Virus record (IMG/VR): IMGVR_UViG_3300029610_000240
Strand: one strand, 5' to 3'
Source: a virus
Taxonomy: Duplodnaviria; Heunggongvirae; Uroviricota; Caudoviricetes
DNA length: 64,000 bases
Below are positions 7,056 to 56,352 of this stretch, piece by piece. Both the position numbers and the translations under genes were made by a program. The notes under the pieces are model-generated. The model ran no database searches, had not been told where the DNA came from, and was given only the letters and a program-made list of their open reading frames with translations. Each line of letters begins with the position of its first letter. The first letter of the stretch is position 1.

Positions 7056-7493
7056 TTGCAAACAGCTACATACTTGTGCTATAATAAAAGTATGAAAAGA
7101 GAATATAAAGTTACAAAAACAACAACATCACTGATCAAGTATCATTTCGTTTTTTGCCCAAAGTATCGAAGAAAGATATTTCTGATCCATGGGGTAGAAG
7201 AACGAATGAAAGAATTGACAAAGGAACAGTGTGAAAAGGATCAGATCGAGATTCTTGAGATGAAATGTGATGTGGATCATGTATATTTATATGTAAGAGC
7301 ATATCCACAGACAACAATAACAAGGATCATGGGGAGCATCAGAGAGTACACATCAAAAATATTAAGAAAGGAATTTAAAGAACTATCAAAAATGAGTTCT
7401 CTTTGGACTAGATCTTATTTTGTTAGCACAGAAGATTTTATTAGTCTGGATACGATCAAATGGTATGTTGAGCAGCAAAAAACTAGAGGGTAA
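7056..7493 (+). CDS. tnpA: IS200/IS605-family Y1 transposase TnpA with a variant HUH motif
   Basis: YHFVFCPKYRRKIF, DHVYLYV (HUH reads H-V-Y) and C-terminal WYVEQQ Tyr helix. Likely true start is the Met at 7092. An 8-bp hairpin GTAGCTGT..ACAGCTAC at 7043..7069 lies just upstream. Confidence 0.85.
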   Translation: MQTATYLCYNKSMKREYKVTKTTTSLIKYHFVFCPKYRRKIFLIHGVEERMKELTKEQCEKDQIEILEMKCDVDHVYLYVRAYPQTTITRIMGSIREYTSKILRKEFKELSKMSSLWTRSYFVSTEDFISLDTIKWYVEQQKTRG

Positions 7494-16650: not shown

Positions 16651-16843
16651 AAATTTGTGGCGAAAACCCACACGCTTGCGTGTGGGATGAAAGCTACATT
16701 TCACTTGACATATACATAGATTAAATATATATATTAAAATACAGAAAGAAAACAGACCATGAGTAAGAGCAACTATGATATAAACACGCATACAACACAA
16801 AATAATGCTACACAATATCATTCAAGTCGTGGAGGAAAAAATA

Positions 16844-17023
16844 ATGGCACAAACTAAAAGTGACAATGTACAAATAAATATTTCTATTCCTACTGGATGG
16901 AAAACAGAACTTGAAAATCTTGCTCGTATCTATTCTGTTGAAGAAGGAAAAACCATCACTTTTCTTGACTTAATGCGTAGAGGTATTCAGGAAAAATATC
17001 AATTAGGAGAAAAAAGGCAGTGA
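16844..17023 (+). CDS. ribbon-helix-helix (CopG-like) small protein
   Basis: ATG at 16844 behind GGAGGAAAAAA. Beta-strand then two helices: VQINISIPTGWKTELENLARIYSVEEGKTITFLDLMRRGI. Confidence 0.5.
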   Translation: MAQTKSDNVQINISIPTGWKTELENLARIYSVEEGKTITFLDLMRRGIQEKYQLGEKRQ

Positions 17024-17433
17024 GTGAGGAACAATATCATAGTGCTTCACATTGTAAATATTTGATACAGTATCATATCATTTGGTGTCCCAAGTTCAGA
17101 TTTTCAGTATTACAAGGAAATGTCGATATCATTCTTAAACAGATATTACAGAAAATTTGTAATGATTATAAATACAAGATCAAAGCACTCGAAGTGATGC
17201 CAGATCATATACATATTTTCATAGATGTTCCGCAGACAGTTGCTCCTTGTGATGTTGTAAGAACTCTCAAAAGTATCAGTGCTATCGAATTATTTAAAGT
17301 ATTTCCAAAATTAAAACAGTTCTATGCGAAATGCGGAGTATTATGGCCAAGAGGATACTTTGTATCTACTGTCGGACATATAAGCGAAGCTACAGTAATT
17401 AAGTATATTGAGGAGCAGAAAAATGATAAGTGA
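17020..17433 (+). CDS. tnpA: IS200/IS605 Y1 transposase TnpA
   Basis: YHIIWCPKFR, intact HUH (PDHIHIFI) and the catalytic Tyr helix VIKYIEEQ. Confidence 0.9.
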   Translation: MSEEQYHSASHCKYLIQYHIIWCPKFRFSVLQGNVDIILKQILQKICNDYKYKIKALEVMPDHIHIFIDVPQTVAPCDVVRTLKSISAIELFKVFPKLKQFYAKCGVLWPRGYFVSTVGHISEATVIKYIEEQKNDK

Positions 17434-19036
17434 TAAAGAATATAAAAAACTTTTAAAACAATTTCATAAACTTTCTGACAGGCATATCTTGGTTGTAGAA
17501 ACCGATATGCCATCTTCTGATGTACAAAAGGTTGTGATTCTTTCTGATAAGATCAGAAAAGCAGGTAATGAGCTTGTTGGTCTTATGAGAAAGAATTATG
17601 ACCAACTTATGCGTACTAAAAAATATCGCAAGTTGCTAAAACTCTATGGTTCTACCAACGATAAAAAGAAACACAGAGATCTAGCAAATCAGCTCAATGA
17701 AATGCAAAAACAGTACAATGTCACATGGGATCATTGCAGAAACGCTATGATACATATAGGTAAGAAATATAGTATTGATGCCGTATTTGCCCTTACAAAA
17801 GCTGAAGATATATGGCGTGGTATTGAAAAATGTCTTTATAACAATGGTAAAACTATTCATTTTTCTAAATATGGTGAGTTGCCTTGTATCAGGGCAAAAC
17901 AGATAAATCGTGGCATTTCAATGTCTGTTAAAGATAATGAATTAAAATTCAAATTAAAGGGAAATGTATTTGGGATACAGGTTAAAGATAGATTTCAAAC
18001 AGATGAAGTTTGTGCGGTTTTAGAATATTTATCAAGATCAGAGATCATAAATGATAAAGCAATAAATAAATTTTTAGATAAAGCATACTGTATTGATACA
18101 TACAGACCTTGCTATGCTACTCTTGTACCTAAATTTATTCGTGGAAAATATAGGGTGTATTTGCATCTTACTATTGAAGGTAAGGCGAAACCTAAATATG
18201 ATAGGTTTGGTAATCCAAGACATAAGTTTGGCAAAGGTATTATAGGCGCAGATATTGGTACACAGACTGTTGCGTATACATCAAATACTGAGGTGGGCTT
18301 GAAAAATCTTTCAGAGCGTGGTAACAGTATTCAGACTTCTGAAAGAAGAGAACGTCTGCTTTACCGTGCGATGGACAGGTCAAGACGTGCAACTGATCCG
18401 CAAAACTATAATGATGATGGTACTGTTAAAAAAGGCCGCAAAACTTGGAAATATTCTAATCATTATAAAAAGCTAAAAGCTAAACACTCTGAACTATGTC
18501 GTATCAATGCTATAAACAGACAGCTTGCAATAAATGAAGACGCTAACCATTTAAGAAGTCTTGGAGATGTATTTATCACGGAACCTAAAAATGCAAGTAA
18601 ACTTATGAAACGAACTAAAGATACTACGGTCAATAGTAAAGGTAAGTTTCATAAGAAAAAGCGTTTTGGAAAATCCATAAAGAACAGATGTCCTTCTGGG
18701 TTTCAAACTACTGTAGAGCGGAAATTTAAGGTATCAGGTGGTATATATATTGAAGTACCTAATAATTACAGAGCAAGTCAATATGACCATACAGCAGATG
18801 ATTATATCAAGAAAAAGCTGTCTGATAGAATATATAAACTTACTGACGGAACATTGGTACAAAGAGATTGGTATTCATCATTCTTATTATACTGTTACGA
18901 TTACAGAACTAAAGATATAGATAAAAACAAATGTATTTCTGAATTTGATAAGTGTTACAACAAAGAAAAAGCTCTGATCGAATGGATCAAGGCTAACAAG
19001 ATCAAAATATTAAATAGCGGAATTAAGATATCGTAA
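17408..19036 (+). CDS. TnpB-like RuvC protein, 542 aa, without a recognisable Zn finger
   Basis: RuvC-like triad candidates: GADIGTQTVAY (D), FITEPKNASK (E), LVQRDWYSSF (D). No CxxC..CxxC between the last two. Confidence 0.6.
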   Translation: MRSRKMISDKEYKKLLKQFHKLSDRHILVVETDMPSSDVQKVVILSDKIRKAGNELVGLMRKNYDQLMRTKKYRKLLKLYGSTNDKKKHRDLANQLNEMQKQYNVTWDHCRNAMIHIGKKYSIDAVFALTKAEDIWRGIEKCLYNNGKTIHFSKYGELPCIRAKQINRGISMSVKDNELKFKLKGNVFGIQVKDRFQTDEVCAVLEYLSRSEIINDKAINKFLDKAYCIDTYRPCYATLVPKFIRGKYRVYLHLTIEGKAKPKYDRFGNPRHKFGKGIIGADIGTQTVAYTSNTEVGLKNLSERGNSIQTSERRERLLYRAMDRSRRATDPQNYNDDGTVKKGRKTWKYSNHYKKLKAKHSELCRINAINRQLAINEDANHLRSLGDVFITEPKNASKLMKRTKDTTVNSKGKFHKKKRFGKSIKNRCPSGFQTTVERKFKVSGGIYIEVPNNYRASQYDHTADDYIKKKLSDRIYKLTDGTLVQRDWYSSFLLYCYDYRTKDIDKNKCISEFDKCYNKEKALIEWIKANKIKILNSGIKIS

Positions 19037-19235
19037 AACATATTTAGGAAGATTGACTATACTTCCTTACGAAAGTAGAAATTTACCGTCAATGTGGTCG
19101 TTGGACTGCTTGGTAATGAAAGCTCTGATTCAAATAGACTTACACTTGTAACTCCAAAGTCTGAAAATGATGTACGATTACAAGCTACACTTGATAATCA
19201 GAACCCCACGGGCTTGCCCGTGGGAGTAGTCAGAT
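19037..19235 (+). ncRNA. putative omega/right-end RNA of the TnpB-like gene
   Basis: Non-coding 3' flank ending in the right-end hairpin. Position is as expected for TnpB guide RNAs; no direct evidence. Confidence 0.35.
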
Positions 19236-19460: not shown

Positions 19461-19772
19461 ATGAAACAGTATATCGGAATAAAGGTTGTTGCTGCGAGAC
19501 CAATGACAAGAGGTGACTATAATATCTTTCGAGGATGGCAGATTCCGGCAGACGAAGATCCTGCCGATGAAGGATATGTGATGAAATACGAGAATGGACA
19601 TGTGCAATGGTTGCCAAAGGATATGTTTGAGTCTGACTATAAAGAATATGACGAGAGTACCCTGCCGGCAACAGCTATTGGTATGGTAAGTTCAGATTAC
19701 AAAGAATGTTTTCAGGCAGAGTACAAGCAGCTCAGAATTCGTTATGAAAAATTGAAGAGAATGCGTCAATAA
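19461..19772 (+). CDS. hypothetical small protein
   Basis: ATG at 19461 behind GGAGAAAGGAG. Its stop codon directly abuts the IscB element's left hairpin. Confidence 0.5.
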   Translation: MKQYIGIKVVAARPMTRGDYNIFRGWQIPADEDPADEGYVMKYENGHVQWLPKDMFESDYKEYDESTLPATAIGMVSSDYKECFQAEYKQLRIRYEKLKRMRQ

Positions 19773-20044
19773 CCCCGACCTACAGTAATAACTGTTGAGG
19801 TCGGAGCTTGTAAAAGCTCATATTGACTAGCCTAAGTTCTTCGAGAACTACGTTGTTTATGTTATCACACCTGCGAATGATACCATAGTTTGCAGCCTTG
19901 TGTAGGCTCTGTAAAAGTTCTGTGAGGTAGGAACGGTCAACCTAGTATGTTCGATCACGACAAGCATTTACAACATTGGCGAAGGGTAACAAACTTTCAA
20001 AAGAAAGGGACAGCACTTGAGAGTAGCTGTCAAAGGTAAAAACT
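19773..20044 (+). ncRNA. IscB omega-RNA region
   Basis: About 270 nt of non-coding, visibly GC-richer and hairpin-rich sequence immediately 5' of iscB, which is the known position of IscB omega-RNAs. Confidence 0.65.
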
Positions 20045-21319
20045 ATGAGAGTATTTGTATTCAATATGCGTGGCAGACCATTAATGCCATGCTCACAAAG
20101 AAAAGCCAGATTACTCCTAAGGGAAAATAAGGCTATGATTTATAAATATCATCCATTTACGATTCAGCTGACTTATACAACTGGAGAAACAAAGCAGGAC
20201 TGTCATATAGGTATAGACACAGGTTCTAAATATATAGGAGCTGCTGTCAGATCAGAGGATAAGGTTTTTTGGAAAGGCGAAATCGAGCTTCGACAGGATA
20301 TCAGGTCAAATCTTGATACGAAACGTATTTATCGCAGAAGCAGACGAAATCGTAAAACAAGATACCGAAAACCAAGGTTTTTAAATCGTAAGAGAAGAGA
20401 TGAATGGCTTCCACCTAGCTTGCAAAGCAGGATAAATCATACGTTTCATTGGATTGACACATTGAGTAGTTTGGTTCCAAACCCCATTCTTCACATAGAA
20501 GTCGGTAAGTTTGATGTAGCAAAGATGATAAATCCTGAAATCCATGGAGTTGACTATCAACATGGTCAGACATATGGTTTCTTCGATGAAAGGTATTTTG
20601 TTTTTGCAAGAGATAACTACACTTGTCAGTGCTGTGGAAAGTCAAAAAATAAGATTTTGAACACACATCATATCATCTACCGCAGTAATGGCGGAACAAA
20701 CAGAGTTGATAATCTTATTACAGTTTGCACAGATTGTCATACATCGCAGAATCACAGGAAAGGTGGAATATTCTATCAATGGCAGGAGCAGCATAAAAAG
20801 GTAAAACAATACAAAGAACCGCCGTTCATGAATACCTTACGTAAGAGGATATTTGTAGCGTATCCAGATGCTGAGATCACATATGGATCTGAAACAACAC
20901 CAAAACGTAAGGCGATGAAATTGGATAAGACGCACTATAATGATGCGATTGTCATTAGTGGTATCAATGAAATTAAAGAAAATCCTGAAGAATGGTTACT
21001 GATAAAACAATTCCGCAAAAAGAAACGCTCTTTACACGAGGCTACCGCCCGTAAGGGAAGAAAAAAGCCAAACAGAAATCAGACGCGTAACAGTAAGAAT
21101 ACGCCTTATTATAAAGGATTTTATCTTAACGATAAGGTTTCAGTTTTTGGAAAGAGTGGATATATTACAGGATTTACGAGCAATGCGGCATATATAAAAG
21201 ATGAGAACAATGACTATATTACTCTGCCAAACAAAACCTATAAACAGGTCAGCATCAATAAAATGAAGTTGGAATGTCATAACAACAATTGGCAGTACAT
21301 AATAAAAAATGCTGTGTAA
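20045..21319 (+). CDS. iscB: IscB RNA-guided nuclease (PLMP, split RuvC, HNH)
   Basis: PLMP motif (RGRPLMPC), RuvC-I IGIDTGSKYIGAAV, Arg-rich bridge RRSRRNRKTRYRKPRF, RuvC-II LHIEVGKFD, HNH CQCCGK..THHIIYRSNGGTNRVDNLITVCTDCH, RuvC-III HYNDAIV. Confidence 0.9.
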   Translation: MRVFVFNMRGRPLMPCSQRKARLLLRENKAMIYKYHPFTIQLTYTTGETKQDCHIGIDTGSKYIGAAVRSEDKVFWKGEIELRQDIRSNLDTKRIYRRSRRNRKTRYRKPRFLNRKRRDEWLPPSLQSRINHTFHWIDTLSSLVPNPILHIEVGKFDVAKMINPEIHGVDYQHGQTYGFFDERYFVFARDNYTCQCCGKSKNKILNTHHIIYRSNGGTNRVDNLITVCTDCHTSQNHRKGGIFYQWQEQHKKVKQYKEPPFMNTLRKRIFVAYPDAEITYGSETTPKRKAMKLDKTHYNDAIVISGINEIKENPEEWLLIKQFRKKKRSLHEATARKGRKKPNRNQTRNSKNTPYYKGFYLNDKVSVFGKSGYITGFTSNAAYIKDENNDYITLPNKTYKQVSINKMKLECHNNNWQYIIKNAV

Positions 21320-21404
21320 TCCGCAATTCATCCCACCACCTATAGAGGTGGGGGACTTCTTGCTCACGGCGTGTTAAATAATTTCCATGAAAGAGAGGTT
21401 TTTT

Positions 21405-21878
21405 ATGCAAAAAAGATATCAATACTGTATGTCAGGTATGTTTGCTGCGACAGATCAAAATTATTACGAAATTAACATCCCATCTCCGCATACATATGAG
21501 ACGGAAGAAGAAGCTATGGCAGATGGAGCTTTTGGATATCGTTTTGTTTTATTGCCTGGTGGTAAAGGACCACAAGTAGTTATATTTGAAGGATCTGGCT
21601 TTCGTCTGGTTTGTGATGGAAAAGAAAATTATATAAAAGACTGGGTTGAAGGAGATATTGTCGGAATATATGATTTCGATGAATTTACAAAAGCTGGTGG
21701 CTATATCCGCTTACTAAATCCAGAACTGGGAGACGATGTTTGTATTATTGAAGATTCAGACTTTTTGGACACAGATAAAACGTTTGCGGATATTTTCCCT
21801 AATATGGAACATCTAAAGCTGTATTATATCGATAATCTTGCATATTCCATTGATGAAATAACAGAAGGAGATAAATAA
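21405..21878 (+). CDS. hypothetical protein
   Basis: ATG at 21405 behind GAGAGG. No motif recognised. Confidence 0.5.
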   Translation: MQKRYQYCMSGMFAATDQNYYEINIPSPHTYETEEEAMADGAFGYRFVLLPGGKGPQVVIFEGSGFRLVCDGKENYIKDWVEGDIVGIYDFDEFTKAGGYIRLLNPELGDDVCIIEDSDFLDTDKTFADIFPNMEHLKLYYIDNLAYSIDEITEGDK

Positions 21879-22399
21879 TGGCAAAAACAGAAGAAACATT
21901 GATCATTGAAGATGTCTTATATCAAAACCTGTTTGGATCCAACCCATGCCTTGCAAGAGAGTATGGAACAAAGGAAGTTACCGTAACTCTTCTCAAGGAG
22001 AAAAAAGTAAAGGAAATCGTTGATTTTCTAAGCTATAACGCAAAAAAAGATGAATTTCGATGCTATGAGATTAAAGTCAGCATGGCCGATTTTAAGAGTA
22101 AGGCTGCCAAAACATGGATTGGAAATTATAATTATTTGGTTATTCCAAGAGAGTTATATTTAAAGCAATCCTTGTATGAATGGAAAGAACAGATTCCATA
22201 TTACGTGGGTATTATCGTTGTAAACGTAGAGCGTAGATCGAAATGGGTTGCTAAAAGACCTTCACCAATGGAAGTATCTGCAGGAATGAAGTTTATGTTA
22301 AGACAGAGTCTAATCAGAACTTTATTTTATCAAAATGATAAATTAAAAAAGAATAGTGCTGCTAAAATAGAGCAGATCTGTCAAGAGACAGAAAAGTAA
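21878..22399 (+). CDS. MmcB-like PD-(D/E)xK family protein
   Basis: EIVDFLSYN..FRCYEIKVSMADFKSK resembles the MmcB-family nuclease-fold core, recalled from memory. Confidence 0.4.
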   Translation: MAKTEETLIIEDVLYQNLFGSNPCLAREYGTKEVTVTLLKEKKVKEIVDFLSYNAKKDEFRCYEIKVSMADFKSKAAKTWIGNYNYLVIPRELYLKQSLYEWKEQIPYYVGIIVVNVERRSKWVAKRPSPMEVSAGMKFMLRQSLIRTLFYQNDKLKKNSAAKIEQICQETEK

Positions 22400-22434
22400 C
22401 TGTTAAGTATCAAATAAAGAAAGGAATTTAAATT

Positions 22435-23001
22435 ATGGAAAAAATCTTGAATTTACAGAGAGGATGGAAATCCAGACTATGGTTTGGAGAAAAAGCATTT
22501 GCATTATGTTTTGTGATATTTACAGCATTTACTGGTTTAGTAAGTGTTAATGCAGGACCTGGAGCCTTGTATGAATCTCATACATTTCGTACAATTTTAA
22601 ATGTCATGTTGACTGCTGCTGCATATGTAATCGCAATTGATCTTGTGTATAACATGATGTTTAATTTTTCCCAACGTTTTTATCAGTCAATCGTCATAGA
22701 AGAAGCAATCGCTATCATTCCATTTATCGTTGGATTGATTATTTTATATGTATTTTCCTGCGGAAAAACAGTGGCAGATTTAATGTATTTTAAGACATAT
22801 GAGCATTTATGGGTGACATTTGTAATTGCTGCATGTATGATTCATGTGGTTTGCAGCTTTGTATTTCGTATGATCCGAAAGGATTACTATAAAAAACATC
22901 CAGAAGAAGAACCACATTATGGCACCATGTATGTATATGATCTTAATAAAAGTAAGAATGATGAAGGAGGAGATGTAGATGAAAAAAGGGAAAGTGATTA
23001 G
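22435..23001 (+). CDS. multi-pass membrane protein
   Basis: Four or five hydrophobic helices and an acidic C-terminal tail. Confidence 0.55.
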   Translation: MEKILNLQRGWKSRLWFGEKAFALCFVIFTAFTGLVSVNAGPGALYESHTFRTILNVMLTAAAYVIAIDLVYNMMFNFSQRFYQSIVIEEAIAIIPFIVGLIILYVFSCGKTVADLMYFKTYEHLWVTFVIAACMIHVVCSFVFRMIRKDYYKKHPEEEPHYGTMYVYDLNKSKNDEGGDVDEKRESD

Positions 23002-23446
23002 AGTAGAAAATGATATTGTAACGATCGGGATGAACAATGGTTCCATTAAAGAAGTTCGAAGATGTGATCTTGGATTTGATCCTGTTCTTGGAGATTTGGT
23101 GGAAATTTTCGAGAATGAAGATCAGATCATTGTGACAAAGGCAAAAAAAGAGCCTGAGAATCACAACGATGCTGGAATCAATATTAACATGACAAACAGT
23201 ATTAACAATGCATCTGATGTGGCAGCAGGAAATGGAAAGAAAGTAGTGAATAAAGTAGCTTACTGCTTACTGGCACTTTTCCTTGGTGGTTTCGGTGCTC
23301 ATAAGTTTTACAGTGGAAAGACTGGGATGGGAATCCTCTATATTGTGTTTTGTTGGACAGCGATTCCAAGTTTTGTTGCATGGGTAGAATTGATCATTGC
23401 TGTATTTACCAAAAAAGCCGATGCAAACGGAAACATTGTTATGTGA
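22979..23446 (+). CDS. TM2-domain membrane protein
   Basis: AYCLLALFLGGFGAHKFYSGKTGMGILYIVFCWTAIPSFVAWVE is the TM2 domain signature. Confidence 0.7.
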   Translation: MKKGKVIRVENDIVTIGMNNGSIKEVRRCDLGFDPVLGDLVEIFENEDQIIVTKAKKEPENHNDAGININMTNSINNASDVAAGNGKKVVNKVAYCLLALFLGGFGAHKFYSGKTGMGILYIVFCWTAIPSFVAWVELIIAVFTKKADANGNIVM

Positions 23447-23600
23447 CATCCTCTCCCATCTATAGAGGTGGGAGCTTCCCTAACCTCGGCAGGTTTGGTT
23501 CTCGTTCGATAGCACCAATGTGCTAAGCTTAAGCGAGCTAACCCCGTGTGTCCCACGGTTGTATTATGTGAAATTGTGGTTATGCAGTTACTATCCGCAT
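23447..23600 (-). ncRNA. TnpB omega-RNA region
   Basis: Sequence overlapping and extending past the 3' end of tnpB, GC-richer than its surroundings, ending at the element-end hairpin. Confidence 0.55.
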
Positions 23601-24698
23601 TCCCTCATTTCTGATATTGATCGCTGCATTTACATCTCTGTCGTGATGGATTCCACACTGCGGACAATCCCACTGCCTGAGTGCAAGATCCTTTGTTTTC
23701 GCATTCTTGTAACCACAGGCAGAACACATCTGACTGCTTGCAAAAAATCTGTCCACTTTCACAAGTTTTTTCCCTTGTTCCTCAAGTTTATACTTTAGAA
23801 AGGCTGTGAACATTCCCCATCCATTATCCGAAACGGATTTTCCCAATTTCAACGACCGAGACATTGCTTTCATATCCAGATCCTCTATACATACACAATC
23901 ATAGGCATTGGTTATCTGTCTTGACTGCTTATGCAGAAAATCTTTTCGCTGATTGGAAACTTTTTCGTGAAGTTTGGCTACCTTGATTCTCTGTTTCCTG
24001 CGATTGTTCGAACCTTTCTGCATCTTGGAAAGTCTGCGTTGTTCTCTTGCTAATCTTTTCTCTGCGTTCCGGTAATATCCTGGATATGCCGGTTCATTGC
24101 CATTACTGTCACGATATAATCCGTGCATGGAAAAGTCCAGACCTAAAAAACTGTGCATCTCCTTTTCTGGTATCTGATCTTCATACTCAAAAAGGATACT
24201 TGCATAGTATCTTCCGCCTGGTGTCTGGCTGATCGTCACTGATTTCAACCTGTATCCCTTTGGAACAGATCTGTGCTGCTTTAATCGGACTTGTCCGATC
24301 TTTGGCAGTTTCAGATACCCATCCGATATGGTGATGTTGCCATTGATACATATGGTTGAATAGCTGTTTTTATGATTCTTTTTTGATTTGAACCTTGGAA
24401 ATCCTGTTTTCGGCCGTTTGAAAAAGTTCTGAAATGCTGTATCAAGGTGTCGGAGTGATTGCTGTAAGGATATACTATCGACTTCCCGCAAAAATGCGTA
24501 TTCTTCCGTTTTCTTCATTTCAGCCATTTCTTTCGCACAGACAGTATATGTTATATTTGTCTTGTTCTTCTTATACTGCCTGATCCTTCGATTAAGCCAA
24601 TGGTTGTACACCATTCTGACACAGCCGAAAGTCCTGGCAAACAGAATCATCTGCTCATTATTGGGATATATTCTGAATTTATATGCTCTGTTTGCCAT
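23580..24698 (-). CDS. tnpB: TnpB RNA-guided nuclease (IS605 OrfB type)
   Basis: N-terminal AYKFRIYPN..Q, RuvC D (GLDFSMHG), E (CIEDLDMK), Zn finger CSACGY..CPQCG, RuvC-III HDRDVNAAINI. Confidence 0.9.
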   Translation of the reverse strand: MANRAYKFRIYPNNEQMILFARTFGCVRMVYNHWLNRRIRQYKKNKTNITYTVCAKEMAEMKKTEEYAFLREVDSISLQQSLRHLDTAFQNFFKRPKTGFPRFKSKKNHKNSYSTICINGNITISDGYLKLPKIGQVRLKQHRSVPKGYRLKSVTISQTPGGRYYASILFEYEDQIPEKEMHSFLGLDFSMHGLYRDSNGNEPAYPGYYRNAEKRLAREQRRLSKMQKGSNNRRKQRIKVAKLHEKVSNQRKDFLHKQSRQITNAYDCVCIEDLDMKAMSRSLKLGKSVSDNGWGMFTAFLKYKLEEQGKKLVKVDRFFASSQMCSACGYKNAKTKDLALRQWDCPQCGIHHDRDVNAAINIRNEGMRIVTA

Positions 24699-25247
24699 GG
24701 TATCACTCCCTTAGTTTTCTGCTTGTGTTTTTGATCATTTTAACAATTTATTATATTTTATCATTTCTTTATTATTCTTTTAAATATATTATACTATGAT
24801 CAGAATACAATATCAAGTGCTTAACAGACGCAATTCATCTCTCACCTTAGAGGTCGGAGTCTTCTTGCTGGAAGAAGATAAAGTATAAGAATAAAAGCCC
24901 CAAAATCTTAACGGATAACGGGGCTTATTTTTTTGTTTAGAAGTTGGAATAAATTATAAATAATAATTTAAAATATGTAATATTCCCATATAATTATAAT
25001 GTTATTCTTGAAATATGTTCAAATAAAGCTAAAAAATATGGGAGCGTTACATATTTTTGCTTGTAATTTGTCAAGGTTATTGTATAATTAAATTATAACG
25101 AACGTTCGTACTAATTAATTTTGAAATGGAACAAAATGTGATTAGAAAGGTAACATTTTTACATGAATTTGGAAAAACAAAAAGAAAATTTCAAGAATCA
25201 TAGGGCAATATTTAAAGATCTTGGAAATAAGGAAGGAGTTGATTTTA

Positions 25248-32804: not shown

Positions 32805-32872
32805 GTTACATAATGCGTAAGAATAAGAATGTATCGAATAAGTCTATATAAGTAGAATCTACCAGGTGGTAG
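32805..32872 (+). ncRNA. tracrRNA-like scaffold A
   Basis: Anti-repeat GTTACATAATGCGTAAGAAT pairs with ATATGTAAC of the repeat. Nexus AAGAATGTATCGAAT. Hairpins TCTA/TAGA and CTACC-AGG-TGGTAG (32859..32872). Confidence 0.65.
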
Positions 32873-32904
32873 AAAATATTAAAACTAACAGGAGATAATA
32901 TTTC

Positions 32905-36277: not shown

Positions 36278-36356
36278 TCAAATTATTTTGCACGGTGCGT
36301 AAAAATAAGAAATTATCGAATAGGCTCGTTAAAACGAGAGCTGCCGTGTGGCAGTA
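36278..36356 (+). ncRNA. tracrRNA-like scaffold B
   Basis: TCAAATTATT linker. Anti-repeat TTGCACGGTGCGTAAAAAT pairs with ACCGTGTAA. Nexus AAGAAATTATCGAAT. Hairpins CTCGT-TAAA-ACGAG and CTGCC-GTGT-GGCAG. Confidence 0.75.
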
Positions 36357-36499
36357 AATCTAAGCTACATCAATTTCAAGATTATAATTTGGGAGGAGAA
36401 AATGTTTGGGAAAATTAATGTTTTTTATTTATTGTTGGCTATATATTTGTATTATTTGTTATATTCTTGCAGCCAAGAACAAGAAAGAAGGTGTAGTGT

Positions 36500-50259: not shown

Positions 50260-50336
50260 TTCAAATTATTTATACAGTACGTGAAAATAAGAAATTATCG
50301 AATAAACTCGTTTAGACGAGAACTGCTAGAGGCAGT
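50260..50336 (+). ncRNA. tracrRNA-like scaffold C
   Basis: Anti-repeat TTTATACAGTACGTGAAAAT gives a 10-bp perfect pairing with ACTGTATAAA. Nexus AAGAAATTATCGAAT. Hairpins CTCGT-TTAG-ACGAG and CTGC-TAGAG-GCAG (50323..50335). Confidence 0.8.
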
Positions 50337-50352
50337 AATTGCAGAAAATGTC

Positions 50353-51117: not shown

Positions 51118-51193
51118 TCAAAGTAATTGCATGGCGTGTAAAAATAAGAATTTATCGAAATAATTTGCTCCGGCGAAATCTGCAAGATGCAGA
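51118..51193 (+). ncRNA. tracrRNA-like scaffold D
   Basis: TCAAAGTAA linker. Anti-repeat TTGCATGGCGTGTAAAAAT pairs with CTATGTAA through two G:U. Nexus AAGAATTTATCGAAAT. Hairpins TTTGC-TCCG-GCGAA and TCTGC-AAGA-TGCAGA. Confidence 0.75.
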
Positions 51194-51197
51194 AATC

Positions 51198-51445: not shown

Positions 51446-51528
51446 GTCAAATAGATTCTATACAATGCGTGAAAATAAGAAACTTATCGAACAAACCTGT
51501 GTAGGAAACAGGAACTGCCGAGGGCAGT
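51446..51528 (+). ncRNA. tracrRNA-like scaffold E
   Basis: GTCAAATAGAT linker, anti-repeat TCTATACAATGCGTGAAAAT, nexus AAGAAACTTATCGAAC. Hairpins CCTGT-GTAGGAA-ACAGG and CTGCC-GAG-GGCAG (51515..51527). Confidence 0.75.
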
Positions 51529-51823
51529 AAAAATAAAAAGCATATTTTTATTATGTTTTATTTTATGATGAAGAGGTGGATGATGGTTCTATCTCTGTTT
51601 TTGAGAAAATGGATGCATTGCAAAATGCAACAATCTTAGAAGTACAAATACATATTGATGACTTAAAAGATAAATTGGAAGAAGTAAAATTTACTCTTAA
51701 AATATCAGGTTTGTATTTGAAGAAGATAATTTTATGGATTCTTATTATAAATCTTATACGTTACCGATTGTATATCACAAAAACTATTTATTAAGTATTA
51801 ACAATGATAAGGAATAACAATAA

Positions 51824-53965: not shown

Positions 53966-54043
53966 TTAAAAGCAGATTACATGGTGTGTCAAAATAAGAA
54001 CTTATCGAATAGATCTATATAAATGGAATCTGCCAGGTGGCAG
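53966..54043 (+). ncRNA. tracrRNA-like scaffold F
   Basis: Anti-repeat TTACATGGTGTGTCAAAAT gives a 9-bp perfect pairing with ACCATGTAA. Nexus AAGAACTTATCGAAT. Hairpin 2 CTGCC-AGGT-GGCAG (54030..54043). Hairpin 1 is weak and resembles that of scaffold A. Confidence 0.75.
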
Positions 54044-54053
54044 AAAAAAACTG

Positions 54054-55580: not shown

Positions 55581-55658
55581 TTATCTGTTTCATGGATTGT
55601 GTAAAAATAAGCAAATTAGCGAATATGCTCGTTGAAACGAGAGCTGTTAGATAACAGC
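55581..55658 (+). ncRNA. tracrRNA-like scaffold G
   Basis: TTATCTGTTT pairs perfectly with AAACAGATAA across a 10-nt loop. GATTGTGTAAAAAT, nexus variant AAGCAAATTAGCGAAT. Hairpins CTCGT-TGAA-ACGAG and GCTGTTA-GA-TAACAGC. Confidence 0.6.
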
Positions 55659-55710
55659 TAAAAATGTAACTATATAAATTAATTTGTAAATTATAGGGAG
55701 GACTATTTTA

Positions 55711-56249: not shown

Positions 56250-56325
56250 TCAAATAAGCAGACTGCGTAAAAATAAGAATTTTATCGATATTGCTCGTGT
56301 AGTCGAGAACTGCCAAGTGGCAGCA
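56250..56325 (+). ncRNA. tracrRNA-like scaffold H
   Basis: TCAAATAAG linker, anti-repeat CAGACTGCGTAAAAAT, nexus AAGAATTTTATCGAT. Hairpins CTCG-TGTAGT-CGAG and CTGCC-AAGT-GGCAG (56310..56323). The next gene's RBS follows 18 nt later. Confidence 0.75.
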
Positions 56326-56352
56326 ACATTTATAATAAAAAGGAGGAATTAT

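What the first reader, a model, noticed from the sequence alone, without database searches (positions are those of the whole stretch)
19773..24880. The IscB and TnpB elements share end hairpins although their cargo genes are different and oppositely oriented
On the plus strand both elements have a left end ending GAGGT(C/G)GGAGCTT (19797 and 23467). Both have a right end reading CGCAATTCATC..CACCT(A)TAGAGGT(G/C)GG..CTTCTTGCT (21322 and 24830). IscB reads left to right and TnpB right to left. As a result both guide RNAs map to the same element end but on opposite strands. This suggests one trans-acting TnpA mobilises both, and that nuclease cargo has been exchanged within a common IS chassis. 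Neither element encodes tnpA; copies exist at 7056 and 17020.
Basis: seen in the sequence. Interest (0 to 1): 0.55.

Follow-up and report, generated by a model that had tools for sequence, protein, structure and literature searches.

The report
IscB and TnpB transposons sharing ends
Two small non-autonomous IS605-family transposons in a gut phage genome, one carrying IscB and one carrying TnpB, share the same family of end hairpins with their nuclease genes in opposite orientations, which is the normal, already published layout for such elements rather than a new phenomenon.

Summary
Empty-site alleles in near-identical phage contigs fix the elements exactly: IscB element 19765-21373, TnpB element 23443-24877.

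The window's minus strand is the IS200/IS605 'top' strand for both:
- 5'-TTTAA|LE...RE| for IscB and 5'-TTTAT|LE...RE| for TnpB.
- The left-end (LE) hairpin lies 18-19 nt inside the boundary and the right-end (RE) hairpin 8-10 nt inside.

tnpB is in the conventional orientation. iscB is inverted, so its HEARO omega-RNA starts exactly at the RE boundary on the other strand.

The two LEs are clearly homologous (38/43 nt). The two REs share only one hairpin arm plus GCTT (12/13 nt).

In more than 120 bacterial loci this LE type is followed by tnpA+tnpB, tnpB alone, or inverted iscB. The last TAM base covaries with the base 5' of the LE hairpin (118 of 119 scorable LEs complementary).

Meers et al. 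2023 already showed RE-derived IscB omega-RNAs, and TnpB and IscB elements with shared ends excised by one TnpA.

The window's own tnpA genes are poor candidates. Both are only 24-30% identical to the cognate clade. One lacks the second His of the HUH motif. The other belongs to a third IS605-like element with different hairpins.

Verdict: a new member of a known kind, of modest interest.

The parts
19749..19764 (+). Predicted 16-nt IscB omega-RNA guide (AAATTGAAGAGAATGC). It is phage DNA just outside the RE.
   Evidence: It lies directly 5' of the HEARO model start. The IscB-free alleles (L004, L240, L244) carry this sequence followed by TTAAA. The 16-nt length is assumed by analogy with published IscB systems.
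19765..21373 (-). Complete non-autonomous IscB element (1609 bp). The IS605 'top' strand is the window's minus strand.
   Evidence: The boundaries come from the IscB-free allele L004. They are confirmed by an identical element at a different site (L143) and an 88% relative (L146), both ending ...GTG|TTAAA and starting |GTCAATAA.
19765..19812 (-). RE of the IscB element. The hairpin spans 19773-19806 and has an enlarged 15-nt loop. On the top strand it ends with TEM-like ...TTATTGAC|.
   Evidence: The ssDNA fold is -12.0 kcal/mol, z -5.75. The hairpin lies 8 nt from the boundary.
19765..19994 (+). IscB omega-RNA scaffold (Rfam HEARO RF02033). It probably extends to about 20040.
   Evidence: cmscan gives 112.4 bits (gathering score 83), E 2.2e-22, with the full-length model 1-211 matched.
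20045..21319 (+). iscB ORF (424 aa), inverted relative to the transposon top strand.
   Evidence: Pfam RRXRR 2.9e-61 and HNH 4.8e-10. PDB IscB hits down to 3.8e-38.
21322..21373 (-). LE of the IscB element. The hairpin spans 21332-21354. The DNA-guide base is T on the top strand (position 21355).
   Evidence: The fold is -11.5 kcal/mol, z -4.33. It is 49/52 identical to the LE of an autonomous tnpA+tnpB element, L325.
21374..21378 (-). TAM of the IscB element: TTTAA on the top strand, TTAAA on the + strand.
   Evidence: The same pentanucleotide flanks three independent insertions (window, L143, L146). It is complementary to the guide base T.
23427..23442 (-). Predicted 16-nt TnpB omega-RNA guide (ATAACAATGTTTCCGT on the minus strand).
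   Evidence: It lies directly 3' of the RE on the tnpB strand. Empty alleles read TTTAT|ATAACAATGTTTCC on that strand.
23443..24877 (-). Complete non-autonomous TnpB element (1435 bp) in the conventional IS605 orientation.
   Evidence: Exact empty sites TTAT|ATAAAG occur in L003, L004, L006 and L263. Relatives at 80-83% identity with the same limits occur in two other faecal phage records.
23443..23484 (-). RE of the TnpB element. The hairpin spans 23453-23474. On the top strand it ends ...AGGATGTCAC|.
   Evidence: The AGGATGTCAC tail is conserved in L115, L069, L072 and L090. The hairpin lies 10 nt from the boundary. The hairpin is imperfect: z is only -0.83.
23443..23600 (-). TnpB omega-RNA scaffold: 137 nt of non-coding sequence plus the 3' end of tnpB.
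   Evidence: A 118-nt block is conserved across TnpBs that are 61-85% identical. The consensus fold has 26 pairs, 7 of them with compensatory changes. No Rfam family matches.
23580..24698 (-). tnpB ORF (372 aa).
   Evidence: Pfam hits OrfB_IS605, Cas12f1-like_TNB and HTH_OrfB_IS605. PDB ISDra2 TnpB E 3e-83. The RuvC-type motifs GLDFS / IEDLD / HDRDVNAA are present.
24829..24877 (-). LE of the TnpB element. The hairpin spans 24839-24859. The DNA-guide base is A on the top strand (position 24860).
   Evidence: The identical hairpin variant occurs in Anaerobutyricum hallii DSM 3353 (L083).
24878..24882 (-). TAM of the TnpB element: TTTAT on the top strand, ATAAA on the + strand.
   Evidence: The same TAM occurs at the insertions in L001 and L002. 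It is complementary to the guide base A.

Best explanation
**What they are.** These are two non-autonomous members of one IS200/IS605 (IS605-group) end family, inserted in a large gut phage genome.

**Shared layout.**
- Both lie with their transposon top strand on the window's minus strand.
- Each follows a pentanucleotide TAM: TTTAA for IscB and TTTAT for TnpB.
- Each has the LE hairpin 18-19 nt inside the boundary and the RE hairpin 8-10 nt inside.

**Mobilisation (inferred).**
- A Y1/HUH TnpA supplied in trans excises and reinserts the top strand. It is most likely of the 'MKLDSNAHSVFLL.YHLVLVVKYRR' clade that sits next to this LE in autonomous elements.
- It would come from the bacterial host or another mobile element.
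- The TAM is read by base pairing with the nucleotide(s) 5' of the LE hairpin.

**Role of the nucleases (inferred from homology and published work).**
- Each nuclease uses an omega-RNA whose scaffold is the RE and whose guide is the DNA flanking the RE.
- It therefore recognises the element-free allele, which is TAM plus RE flank.
- Cleavage of that allele promotes re-copying of the element.

**Why the genes face opposite ways.**
- TnpB takes a 5' TAM and a 3' guide.
- IscB takes a 3' TAM and a 5' guide.
- The same RE and TAM geometry therefore forces the two genes onto opposite strands.

**Shown here.** Exact boundaries, TAMs, orientation, omega-RNA positions, end homology, TAM/guide covariation, presence/absence polymorphism and a second insertion site.

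**Inferred only.** The identity of the transposase, nuclease activity and homing.
For: **Empty sites and a second insertion site.**
- Empty alleles and a second IscB insertion site give exact boundaries with no target duplication.

**Orientation and omega-RNAs.**
- The HEARO match starts at the RE boundary.
- The TnpB omega-RNA region is conserved, with compensatory pairs, and ends at the RE boundary.

**End similarity within the window.**
- LE versus LE is 38/43 identical, score 47 against a shuffle maximum of 22.
- The end motif occurs only at the four ends.

**The same LE type in bacterial genomes (at least 120 loci).**
- On the top strand, tnpB follows the LE on the + strand in 22 of 22 loci.
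- tnpA+tnpB follow it in L060, L070 and L115, and a tnpA start at a contig end in L077.
- iscB lies on the - strand in 2 of 2 loci, L132 and L104.

**TAM and guide-base covariation.**
- Counts are T/A 78, A/T 38, C/G 2, with 1 exception.
- Both window elements obey the rule.

**Links to autonomous elements.**
- The IscB LE is 49/52 identical to the LE of an autonomous tnpA+tnpB element, and one of the three differences is part of a compensatory stem change.
- The autonomous element in L012/L272 has an LE like the window's TnpB element and an 81%-identical TnpB.

**Published precedent.** Meers et al. 2023 report:
- an IscB omega-RNA scaffold derived from the RE;
- ISGst1-5, comprising TnpB and IscB elements, with similar ends;
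- one TnpA that excises all five;
- TAMs that match the nuclease TAMs.
Against: - No cognate TnpA was found in the window. None lies on this phage lineage's contigs among the 80 of 90 viral-contig hits that were listed. The mobilising enzyme is therefore unidentified.
- The RE similarity between the two elements is short and not specific to the RE-RE pairing.
- The TnpB element's own hairpins are imperfect and fold weakly (z -1.35 and -0.83). I saw that element at only one site in this phage lineage, so it may be poorly mobile.
- All IscB-bearing alleles at this locus carry the same 132-bp flank deletion. This points to a single insertion history at this site, not repeated transposition.
- Nuclease and transposase activities are untested.
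Confidence: 0.85

Rival explanations
1. The phage's own Y1 transposases (TnpA1 at 7092-7493, TnpA2 at 17020-17433) are the trans-acting enzymes that move both elements. This is what the first reader implied.
For: Both ORFs are genuine Y1_Tnp proteins and lie in the same genome. TnpA2 keeps the HUH motif and the catalytic Tyr. The TAM of TnpA2's own element (..GTTAT|) resembles TTTAT.
Against: - Neither tnpA is flanked by the shared end motif.
- They are only 24-30% identical to the TnpA clade that sits next to this LE in at least 11 loci.
- TnpA1 has HVY in place of HUH and has no room for an RE before the next gene.
- TnpA2 belongs to a separate element with different hairpins: CCCACACGCTTGCGTGTGGG and CCCACGGGCTTGCCCGTGGG.
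Confidence: 0.08
2. The end similarity is a generic IS200/IS605 hairpin, and the two elements are unrelated families that happen to sit near each other.
For: The RE-RE similarity is only 12/13 nt and equals the RE-LE scores. All four ends share the same palindromic arm.
Against: - LE homology extends well beyond the hairpin. It covers CAAGAAG on one side and GATGAATTGCG on the other, 38/43 in total.
- Most other IscB elements in viral contigs (about 73 of 80) do not have this LE, so it is family-specific.
- The same LE precedes tnpA/tnpB in many genomes.
Confidence: 0.03
3. The elements are no longer transposons in practice. They are fixed or domesticated nuclease cassettes that the phage keeps for another purpose, such as cutting competing phage genomes, and their ends are relics.
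For: - The TnpB element's hairpins are degraded.
- No cognate tnpA was found in the phage.
- The IscB guide matches the intact allele of sibling phages perfectly and has a TAM next to it.
- The IscB+ allele is the majority, 17 of 20.
Against: - An identical IscB element sits at a different site in another phage contig with the correct TAM.
- Exact scarless presence/absence occurs in all four combinations.
- The IscB ends fold strongly.

These point to recent TnpA-type mobility. This reading is not exclusive of the main explanation.
Confidence: 0.1

Closest known systems
ISGst1-5 of Geobacillus stearothermophilus (Meers et al. 2023; bioRxiv 10.1101/2023.03.14.532601, later published in Nature)
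   Same: - TnpB- and IscB-carrying non-autonomous IS605-family elements have highly similar LE and RE.
- The IscB omega-RNA scaffold derives from the RE, with a 5' guide outside the boundary.
- TAMs are pentanucleotides, TTTAT for ISGst2.
- TAM/TEM covary with DNA guides.
- One TnpA acts in trans on all of them.
   Different: - The host here is a roughly 200-kb gut phage lineage, not a bacterial chromosome.
- There are only two copies in the window.
- The transposase is not identified.
- The RE similarity between the IscB and TnpB elements is weaker here.
- Nothing here is experimentally tested.
ISDra2 / IS608 (canonical IS200/IS605 elements with TnpA + TnpB)
   Same: - Subterminal imperfect palindromes on one strand.
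- Insertion 3' of a short TAM without target duplication.
- LE cleavage about 19 nt 5' of the hairpin and RE cleavage about 10 nt 3' of it.
- The cleavage-site base pairs with the base 5' of the hairpin (established knowledge for IS608).
- The window's TnpB matches ISDra2 TnpB with E 3e-83.
   Different: - The window elements have no tnpA.
- The TAM is TTTAT or TTTAA, not TTAC or TTGAT.
- The cognate TnpA clade is only about 37% identical to IS608 TnpA. That figure comes, against an IS608 sequence I entered from memory; against PDB entry 2a6m confirms the homology.
ISC / HEARO elements (IscB with omega-RNA; Kapitonov et al. 2016; Altae-Tran et al. 2021; Rfam RF02033)
   Same: - IscB has RuvC and HNH domains.
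- A full-length HEARO RNA lies immediately upstream on the same strand and starts with GUCAA, the reverse complement of the RE terminus TTGAC.
- The upstream host gene is in the same orientation, as needed to transcribe the guide.
   Different: - This IscB (424 aa) rides on an LE type otherwise seen mainly with tnpA/tnpB. Only about 7 of 80 IscB loci sampled from viral contigs have it.
- Its RE hairpin has an enlarged 15-nt loop.

Membership tests
IS200/IS605 family (IS605 group), non-autonomous element | Subterminal imperfect palindromes at both ends on the same strand, and no terminal inverted repeats | tested here: met
   All four hairpins lie in the same orientation. The folds are: strong for the IscB element, weak for the TnpB element.
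IS200/IS605 family (IS605 group), non-autonomous element | Insertion immediately 3' of a short specific target (TAM) with no target-site duplication, and a scarless empty site | tested here: met
   The TnpB empty site is TTAT|ATAAAG. IscB insertions at three sites all abut TTTAA. TnpB relatives abut TTTAT.
IS200/IS605 family (IS605 group), non-autonomous element | Asymmetric ends: LE cleavage site about 19 nt 5' of the hairpin and RE cleavage about 10 nt 3' of the hairpin | tested here: met
   Distances are 19 and 18 nt at the LE, and 8 and 10 nt at the RE, on the minus strand.
IS200/IS605 family (IS605 group), non-autonomous element | The cleavage-site or TAM base is recognised by pairing with the base 5' of the hairpin (DNA guide) | tested here: met
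   Covariation is 78 T/A, 38 A/T, 2 C/G and 1 exception across distinct LEs, and both window elements fit. The physical pairing itself is not testable here.
IS200/IS605 family (IS605 group), non-autonomous element | Mobilised by a Y1 HUH TnpA | not testable with these tools
   Autonomous relatives with the same LE encode a Y1 TnpA. Excision of these particular copies is untested.
TnpB / OMEGA RNA-guided nuclease | TnpB has RuvC motifs and a Zn-finger region. Its omega-RNA overlaps the 3' end of the gene and the RE, with the guide beyond the RE and a 5' TAM equal to the transposon TAM | tested here: met
   The conserved, structured 3' region is. The empty site reads TTTAT + guide match. Cleavage is not testable.
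IscB / HEARO (ISC) element | IscB has RuvC, HNH and N-terminal PLMP/RRXRR domains, with a HEARO omega-RNA directly upstream on the same strand | tested here: met
   HEARO scores 112 bits with the full model matched.
IscB / HEARO (ISC) element | The omega-RNA scaffold starts at the transposon RE boundary. The guide lies 5' outside the element. The TAM lies 3' of the target and equals the reverse complement of the transposon TAM | tested here: met
   The HEARO start at 19765 coincides with the boundary defined by empty and alternative sites. The IscB-free allele reads guide + TTAAA. Cleavage is not testable.
Multi-cargo IS605 end family served by one TnpA (ISGst-like) | TnpB- and IscB-bearing elements share homologous LE and RE | tested here: inconclusive
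   LE homology is clearly met (38/43; family level). The RE shares only the AAG + hairpin arm, and the loops and tails differ systematically: AGGATGTCAC versus T(T/A)(A/G)TTGAC.
Multi-cargo IS605 end family served by one TnpA (ISGst-like) | A single TnpA excises both element types | not testable with these tools
   This is inferred only from the shared LE and the association with one TnpA clade.

The most novel reading that the evidence does not exclude
In this phage population the two elements behave chiefly as RNA-guided homing or gene-drive cassettes, or as inter-phage weapons. They would act during co-infection instead of moving as ordinary transposons.

- The IscB guide plus TAM matches the intact allele of IscB-free sibling phages perfectly.
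- The IscB-bearing allele, together with a co-inherited 132-bp deletion that truncates a crAss001_48-like gene, makes up 17 of 20 metagenomic alleles.
- All four IscB+/- and TnpB+/- combinations segregate, as expected if each cassette spreads independently by cleavage and recombination between phage genomes.
Probability: 0.3. Interest if true: 0.55.

Novelty: new member of a known kind. Interest (0 to 1): 0.3.

Why it matters
It gives a clean natural example of IS605 logic, with base-exact boundaries from population polymorphism. Because the TAM and RE flank define the target, TnpB (5' TAM, 3' guide) and IscB (3' TAM, 5' guide) have to sit on opposite strands of the same chassis.

It also shows these elements segregating within a large gut-phage lineage. 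That lineage could serve as a system for testing RNA-guided homing between co-infecting phages.

It does not change current understanding, because the principle was shown experimentally in Geobacillus.

Tried and rejected
**Rfam search for a TnpB omega-RNA family (23380-23780).** It returned only an insignificant CRISPR-DR9 resemblance (16 bits, E 0.83). I treated that as chance.

**Whether RE-RE similarity alone proves equivalence of the left ends.** It does not. A-C scores the same as A-D. I relied on boundaries, spacing and omega-RNAs instead.

**The window's tnpA genes as mobilisers.** Rejected as unlikely.

**A cognate tnpA elsewhere.**
- None was found in the window.
- None lay on this phage lineage's contigs among the 80 of 90 IMG/VR hits that were listed.

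**An allele with the 132-bp deletion but no IscB, or with IscB and the 132 bp retained.** None was found among 20 metagenomic alleles. The origin of the deletion stays open.

**First tblastn classification.** It used a mis-framed TnpA1. This was corrected and rerun.

**A strict LE regex.** It missed LE variants such as CAAGAAA next to cognate TnpAs. Inspection by eye recovered L325.

**The 542-aa ORF after tnpA2.**
- Pfam gave no credible hit (only DUF7667 at E 0.057, far below its cutoff) and PDB gave nothing relevant.
- Only PHROG 506 'transposase' matched.

**The 59-aa ORF upstream of tnpA2.** It gave no RHH/Arc Pfam hit.

Full report
**1. What is in the window**

The region holds two nuclease genes.
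- An IscB ORF lies at 20045-21319 on the + strand (424 aa; Pfam RRXRR 2.9e-61, HNH 4.8e-10).
- A TnpB ORF lies at 23580-24698 on the - strand (372 aa; OrfB_IS605, Cas12f1-like_TNB, HTH_OrfB_IS605).
- Four unrelated phage ORFs lie between them (21387-23446).
- Rfam places a full-length HEARO RNA, the IscB omega-RNA family, at 19765-19994 on the + strand (112 bits against a gathering score of 83).
- TnpB matches ISDra2 TnpB structures with E 3e-83 and keeps the RuvC-type motifs. IscB matches solved IscBs.

**2. Checking the observation**

- TAGAGGTSGGRG with up to 1 mismatch occurs four times in 64 kb. All four are on the + strand and all are at the four element ends. Shuffles predict 0.17.
- The two right-hand ends (B 21322-21373, D 24829-24877) align 38/43 with local score 47. 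The maximum of 1000 shuffles was 22.
- The two left-hand ends (A 19765-19812, C 23443-23480) share only GAGGTSGGAGCTT (12/13, score 21). This is no better than A versus D (21) or B versus C (31).
- So all four ends share one palindromic arm. Only the right-hand ends are homologous well beyond the hairpin.

**3. Exact boundaries from related genomes**

IMG/VR contigs 98-99.7% identical to this region differ by presence or absence of each element.

*TnpB element.*
- L003, L004 and L006 lack it and read ...CATTGTTAT|ATAAAGTATAAG.
- This gives the element as 23443-24877 (1435 bp), with no target duplication.

*IscB element.*
- L004 lacks it, and the flank homology ends at 19764|19765, exactly the HEARO start.
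- An identical IscB element sits at a different site in another roughly 220-kb viral contig (L143). An 88% relative sits at a third site (L146).
- All begin |GTCAATAACCCC and end ...G|TTAAA.
- The element is therefore 19765-21373 (1609 bp).

*Relatives of the TnpB element.* Two faecal phage records carry relatives that are 80-83% identical with the same limits, next to ATAAA.

**4. Which strand is the transposon strand**

Read on the minus strand, the two elements are:
- 5'-TTTAA|CACGCCGTGAGCAAGAAGT[hairpin]ATGAATTGCG ... AAG[hairpin]TTATTGAC|-3' for IscB
- 5'-TTTAT|CTTCTTCCAGCAAGAAGA[hairpin]ATGAATTGCG ... AAG[hairpin]AGGATGTCAC|-3' for TnpB

The evidence that the minus strand is the top strand:
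- A constant pentanucleotide precedes the 5' end.
- The 5' hairpin lies 18-19 nt inside the boundary and the 3' hairpin 8-10 nt inside. This is the IS608/ISDra2 asymmetry (established knowledge).
- The plus strand shows no common 5' flank.

It follows that tnpB is conventional, with the LE upstream and the RE plus omega-RNA downstream, while iscB is inverted. The region between the tnpB stop codon and the RE boundary is conserved across TnpBs that are 61-85% identical. It folds into a consensus with 26 pairs, 7 of them with compensatory changes.

**5. Family-level evidence**

Most are Clostridia (Ruminococcus, Lachnospiraceae, Anaerobutyricum hallii), with some Erysipelotrichaceae and Fusobacterium.

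Oriented on the top strand:
- tnpB follows the LE on the + strand in 22 of 22 detectable cases.
- tnpA+tnpB follow it in L060, L070 and L115, and in the viral contig L012. L077 shows a tnpA start cut off by its contig end.
- A distinct TnpA clade (MKLDSNAHSVFLL.YHLVLVVKYRR...) follows the LE in at least 11 loci.
- iscB lies on the - strand in L132 (38% identical, full length) and L104.
- Short LE+RE elements with no gene (PATE-like) also occur.

The last TAM base is complementary to the base immediately 5' of the LE hairpin in 118 of 119 distinct, scorable LEs: T/A 78, A/T 38, C/G 2. The window follows the rule:
- TTTAA pairs with ...AAGAAGT in the IscB element.
- TTTAT pairs with ...AAGAAGA in the TnpB element.

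Further links between the window elements and autonomous elements:
- The IscB element's LE is 49/52 identical to the LE of an autonomous tnpA+tnpB element (L325). That includes the first 17 nt and the TTTAA. One of the three differences is part of a compensatory stem change.
- Only about 7 of 80 IscB loci sampled from viral contigs carry this LE type. The sharing is therefore specific and not a general property of IscB elements.
- RE tails differ systematically by cargo: AGGATGTCAC| with TnpB and T(T/A)(A/G)TTGAC| with IscB. This fits the RE doubling as two different RNA scaffolds.

**6. Which TnpA**

Neither window tnpA looks like the partner.
- *TnpA1 (7092-7493).* The second His of the HUH motif is replaced by Tyr (alignment to IS608 TnpA 2a6m). 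It is followed within 20 nt by a structural gene. It is conserved in diverged relatives.
- *TnpA2 (17020-17433).* It lies in a third, apparently autonomous IS605-like element, about 16651-19233.
  - The LE hairpin is CCCACACGCTTGCGTGTGGG.
  - The genes are a 59-aa ORF, tnpA2 and a 542-aa ORF that hits only PHROG 506 'transposase'.
  - The RE hairpin is CCCACGGGCTTGCCCGTGGG followed by AGTAGTCAG|.
  - The element is found with unrelated flanks in four other viral contigs.
- Both proteins are 24-30% identical to the cognate clade.
- The cognate clade is common in IMG/VR (90 stretches). None of the 80 listed lies on a contig of this phage lineage, and none is in the window.
- The mobiliser is therefore most likely supplied by the host or by another element. 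This step is inference.

**7. Population picture and an unexplained detail**

Scanning metagenome contigs with the IscB left flank gave 20 alleles of this phage locus.
- 17 carry IscB and 3 do not.
- All four IscB+/- and TnpB+/- combinations exist. L266 is IscB-/TnpB+ and L263 is IscB+/TnpB-.

Every IscB-free allele has 132 extra bp (44 codons) where the element sits.
- These complete a PF21825 crAss001_48-like domain. The full-length allele scores 64 bits. The window's truncated copy scores 22-23 bits and matches only profile positions 1-25 of 61.
- The 132 bp are bracketed by two TTAAA sites. The RE abuts the first site and the LE abuts the second.
- No allele shows the deletion without the element, or the element with the 132 bp retained.

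Possible causes are slippage between the TTAAA repeats, or a TnpA event using the alternative TAM. I cannot decide between them.

Both elements sit at the 3' ends of phage ORFs and supply new stop codons: ...MRQ* for the truncated gene, and an I-to-M change plus stop for the TM2-domain gene.

The IscB-free alleles contain the 16-nt guide match followed by TTAAA. The TnpB-free alleles contain TTTAT followed by the guide match. Each nuclease could therefore, in principle, cut its empty allele.

**8. Comparison with what is known**

Meers et al. 2023 state the following:
- The conserved region upstream of iscB is bounded by the transposon RE.
- IscB omega-RNAs are an RE-derived scaffold plus a 5' guide outside the boundary.
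- ISGst1-5, which encode TnpB or IscB, have highly similar LE and RE.
- A single GstTnpA excises all five.
- TAM/TEM covary with DNA guides.
- Most iscB and tnpB genes lack a nearby tnpA.

What is new here is the particular element pair, its phage setting, the base-exact polymorphism and the flank deletion.

**9. Verdict**

The opposite-strand guides at the same end and the shared chassis hold. The 'copies at 7056 and 17020' are not credible partners, and the layout is conventional.
- Novelty: new member of a known kind.
- Interest: 0.3.

Noticed in passing
window 16651-19233: A third, apparently autonomous IS605-like element with different end hairpins. Its LE hairpin is CCCACACGCTTGCGTGTGGG at 16669-16688 and its RE hairpin is CCCACGGGCTTGCCCGTGGG followed by AGTAGTCAG|. 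It carries a 59-aa ORF (16844-17023), tnpA2 and a 542-aa ORF that matches only PHROG 506 'transposase', with no credible Pfam or PDB hit. It occurs with unrelated flanks in four other viral contigs (L138-L141). The 542-aa protein may be a very divergent TnpB-like nuclease.
   Followed up: partly
window 7092-7493: A solo Y1 transposase (TnpA1) whose HUH motif reads H-V-Y. It is 99% conserved at protein level in relatives (L133, L135), where the surrounding aligned region is about 85% identical at DNA level. The next gene starts 20 nt after its stop codon, leaving no room for an RE. It may be inactive or domesticated.
   Followed up: partly
window 19764/19765 and 21373/21374; L004 486-617: All IscB-bearing alleles lack 132 bp (44 codons) of the upstream crAss001_48-like gene that IscB-free alleles retain. 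The missing segment is bracketed by two TTAAA (TAM) sites. No intermediate allele was found among 20 metagenomic alleles, so the mechanism is unresolved.
   Followed up: yes
window 32817-32875, 36299-36357, 50281-50338, 51138-51195, 51469-51530, 53988-54046, 55601-55660, 56267-56326 (all + strand): Eight copies of the Rfam RAGATH-30 RNA motif (64.7-78.6 bits against a gathering score of 59.5) are spread over about 24 kb on one strand. This looks like a repeated regulatory or processing signal of this phage.
   Followed up: no
window 25227/25228 and 25843/25844; L003 8407-12155, L005 10454-11678, L006 8406-9148: Further gene-content polymorphisms lie just downstream in sibling phage contigs. 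One is a 3.7-kb insert that carries a different 385-aa TnpB-like ORF (L003, L004). Another is a 1.2-kb insert with two ORFs. The neighbourhood is a hotspot of variation.
   Followed up: partly
IMG/VR loci L142-L221: IscB genes are abundant in viral contigs: 231 confirmed stretches. Several copies can occur per large phage contig, for example four or more in IMGVR_UViG_3300008136_000223. Most have LEs that differ from the one studied here.
   Followed up: partly
window 23443-23478 (- strand): The TnpB RE hairpin plus its AGGATGTCAC tail gives a weak, non-significant match to a CRISPR repeat model (CRISPR-DR9, 16 bits, E 0.83). This is probably chance.
   Followed up: no
L001 (MT835477.1) about 1495-1520: A related TnpB element in another faecal phage has lost its RE hairpin (GTGACATCCTCCCC-AACCTCGG) and has a duplicated GTGAC at the boundary. 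It looks like a decayed, immobile copy.
   Followed up: no
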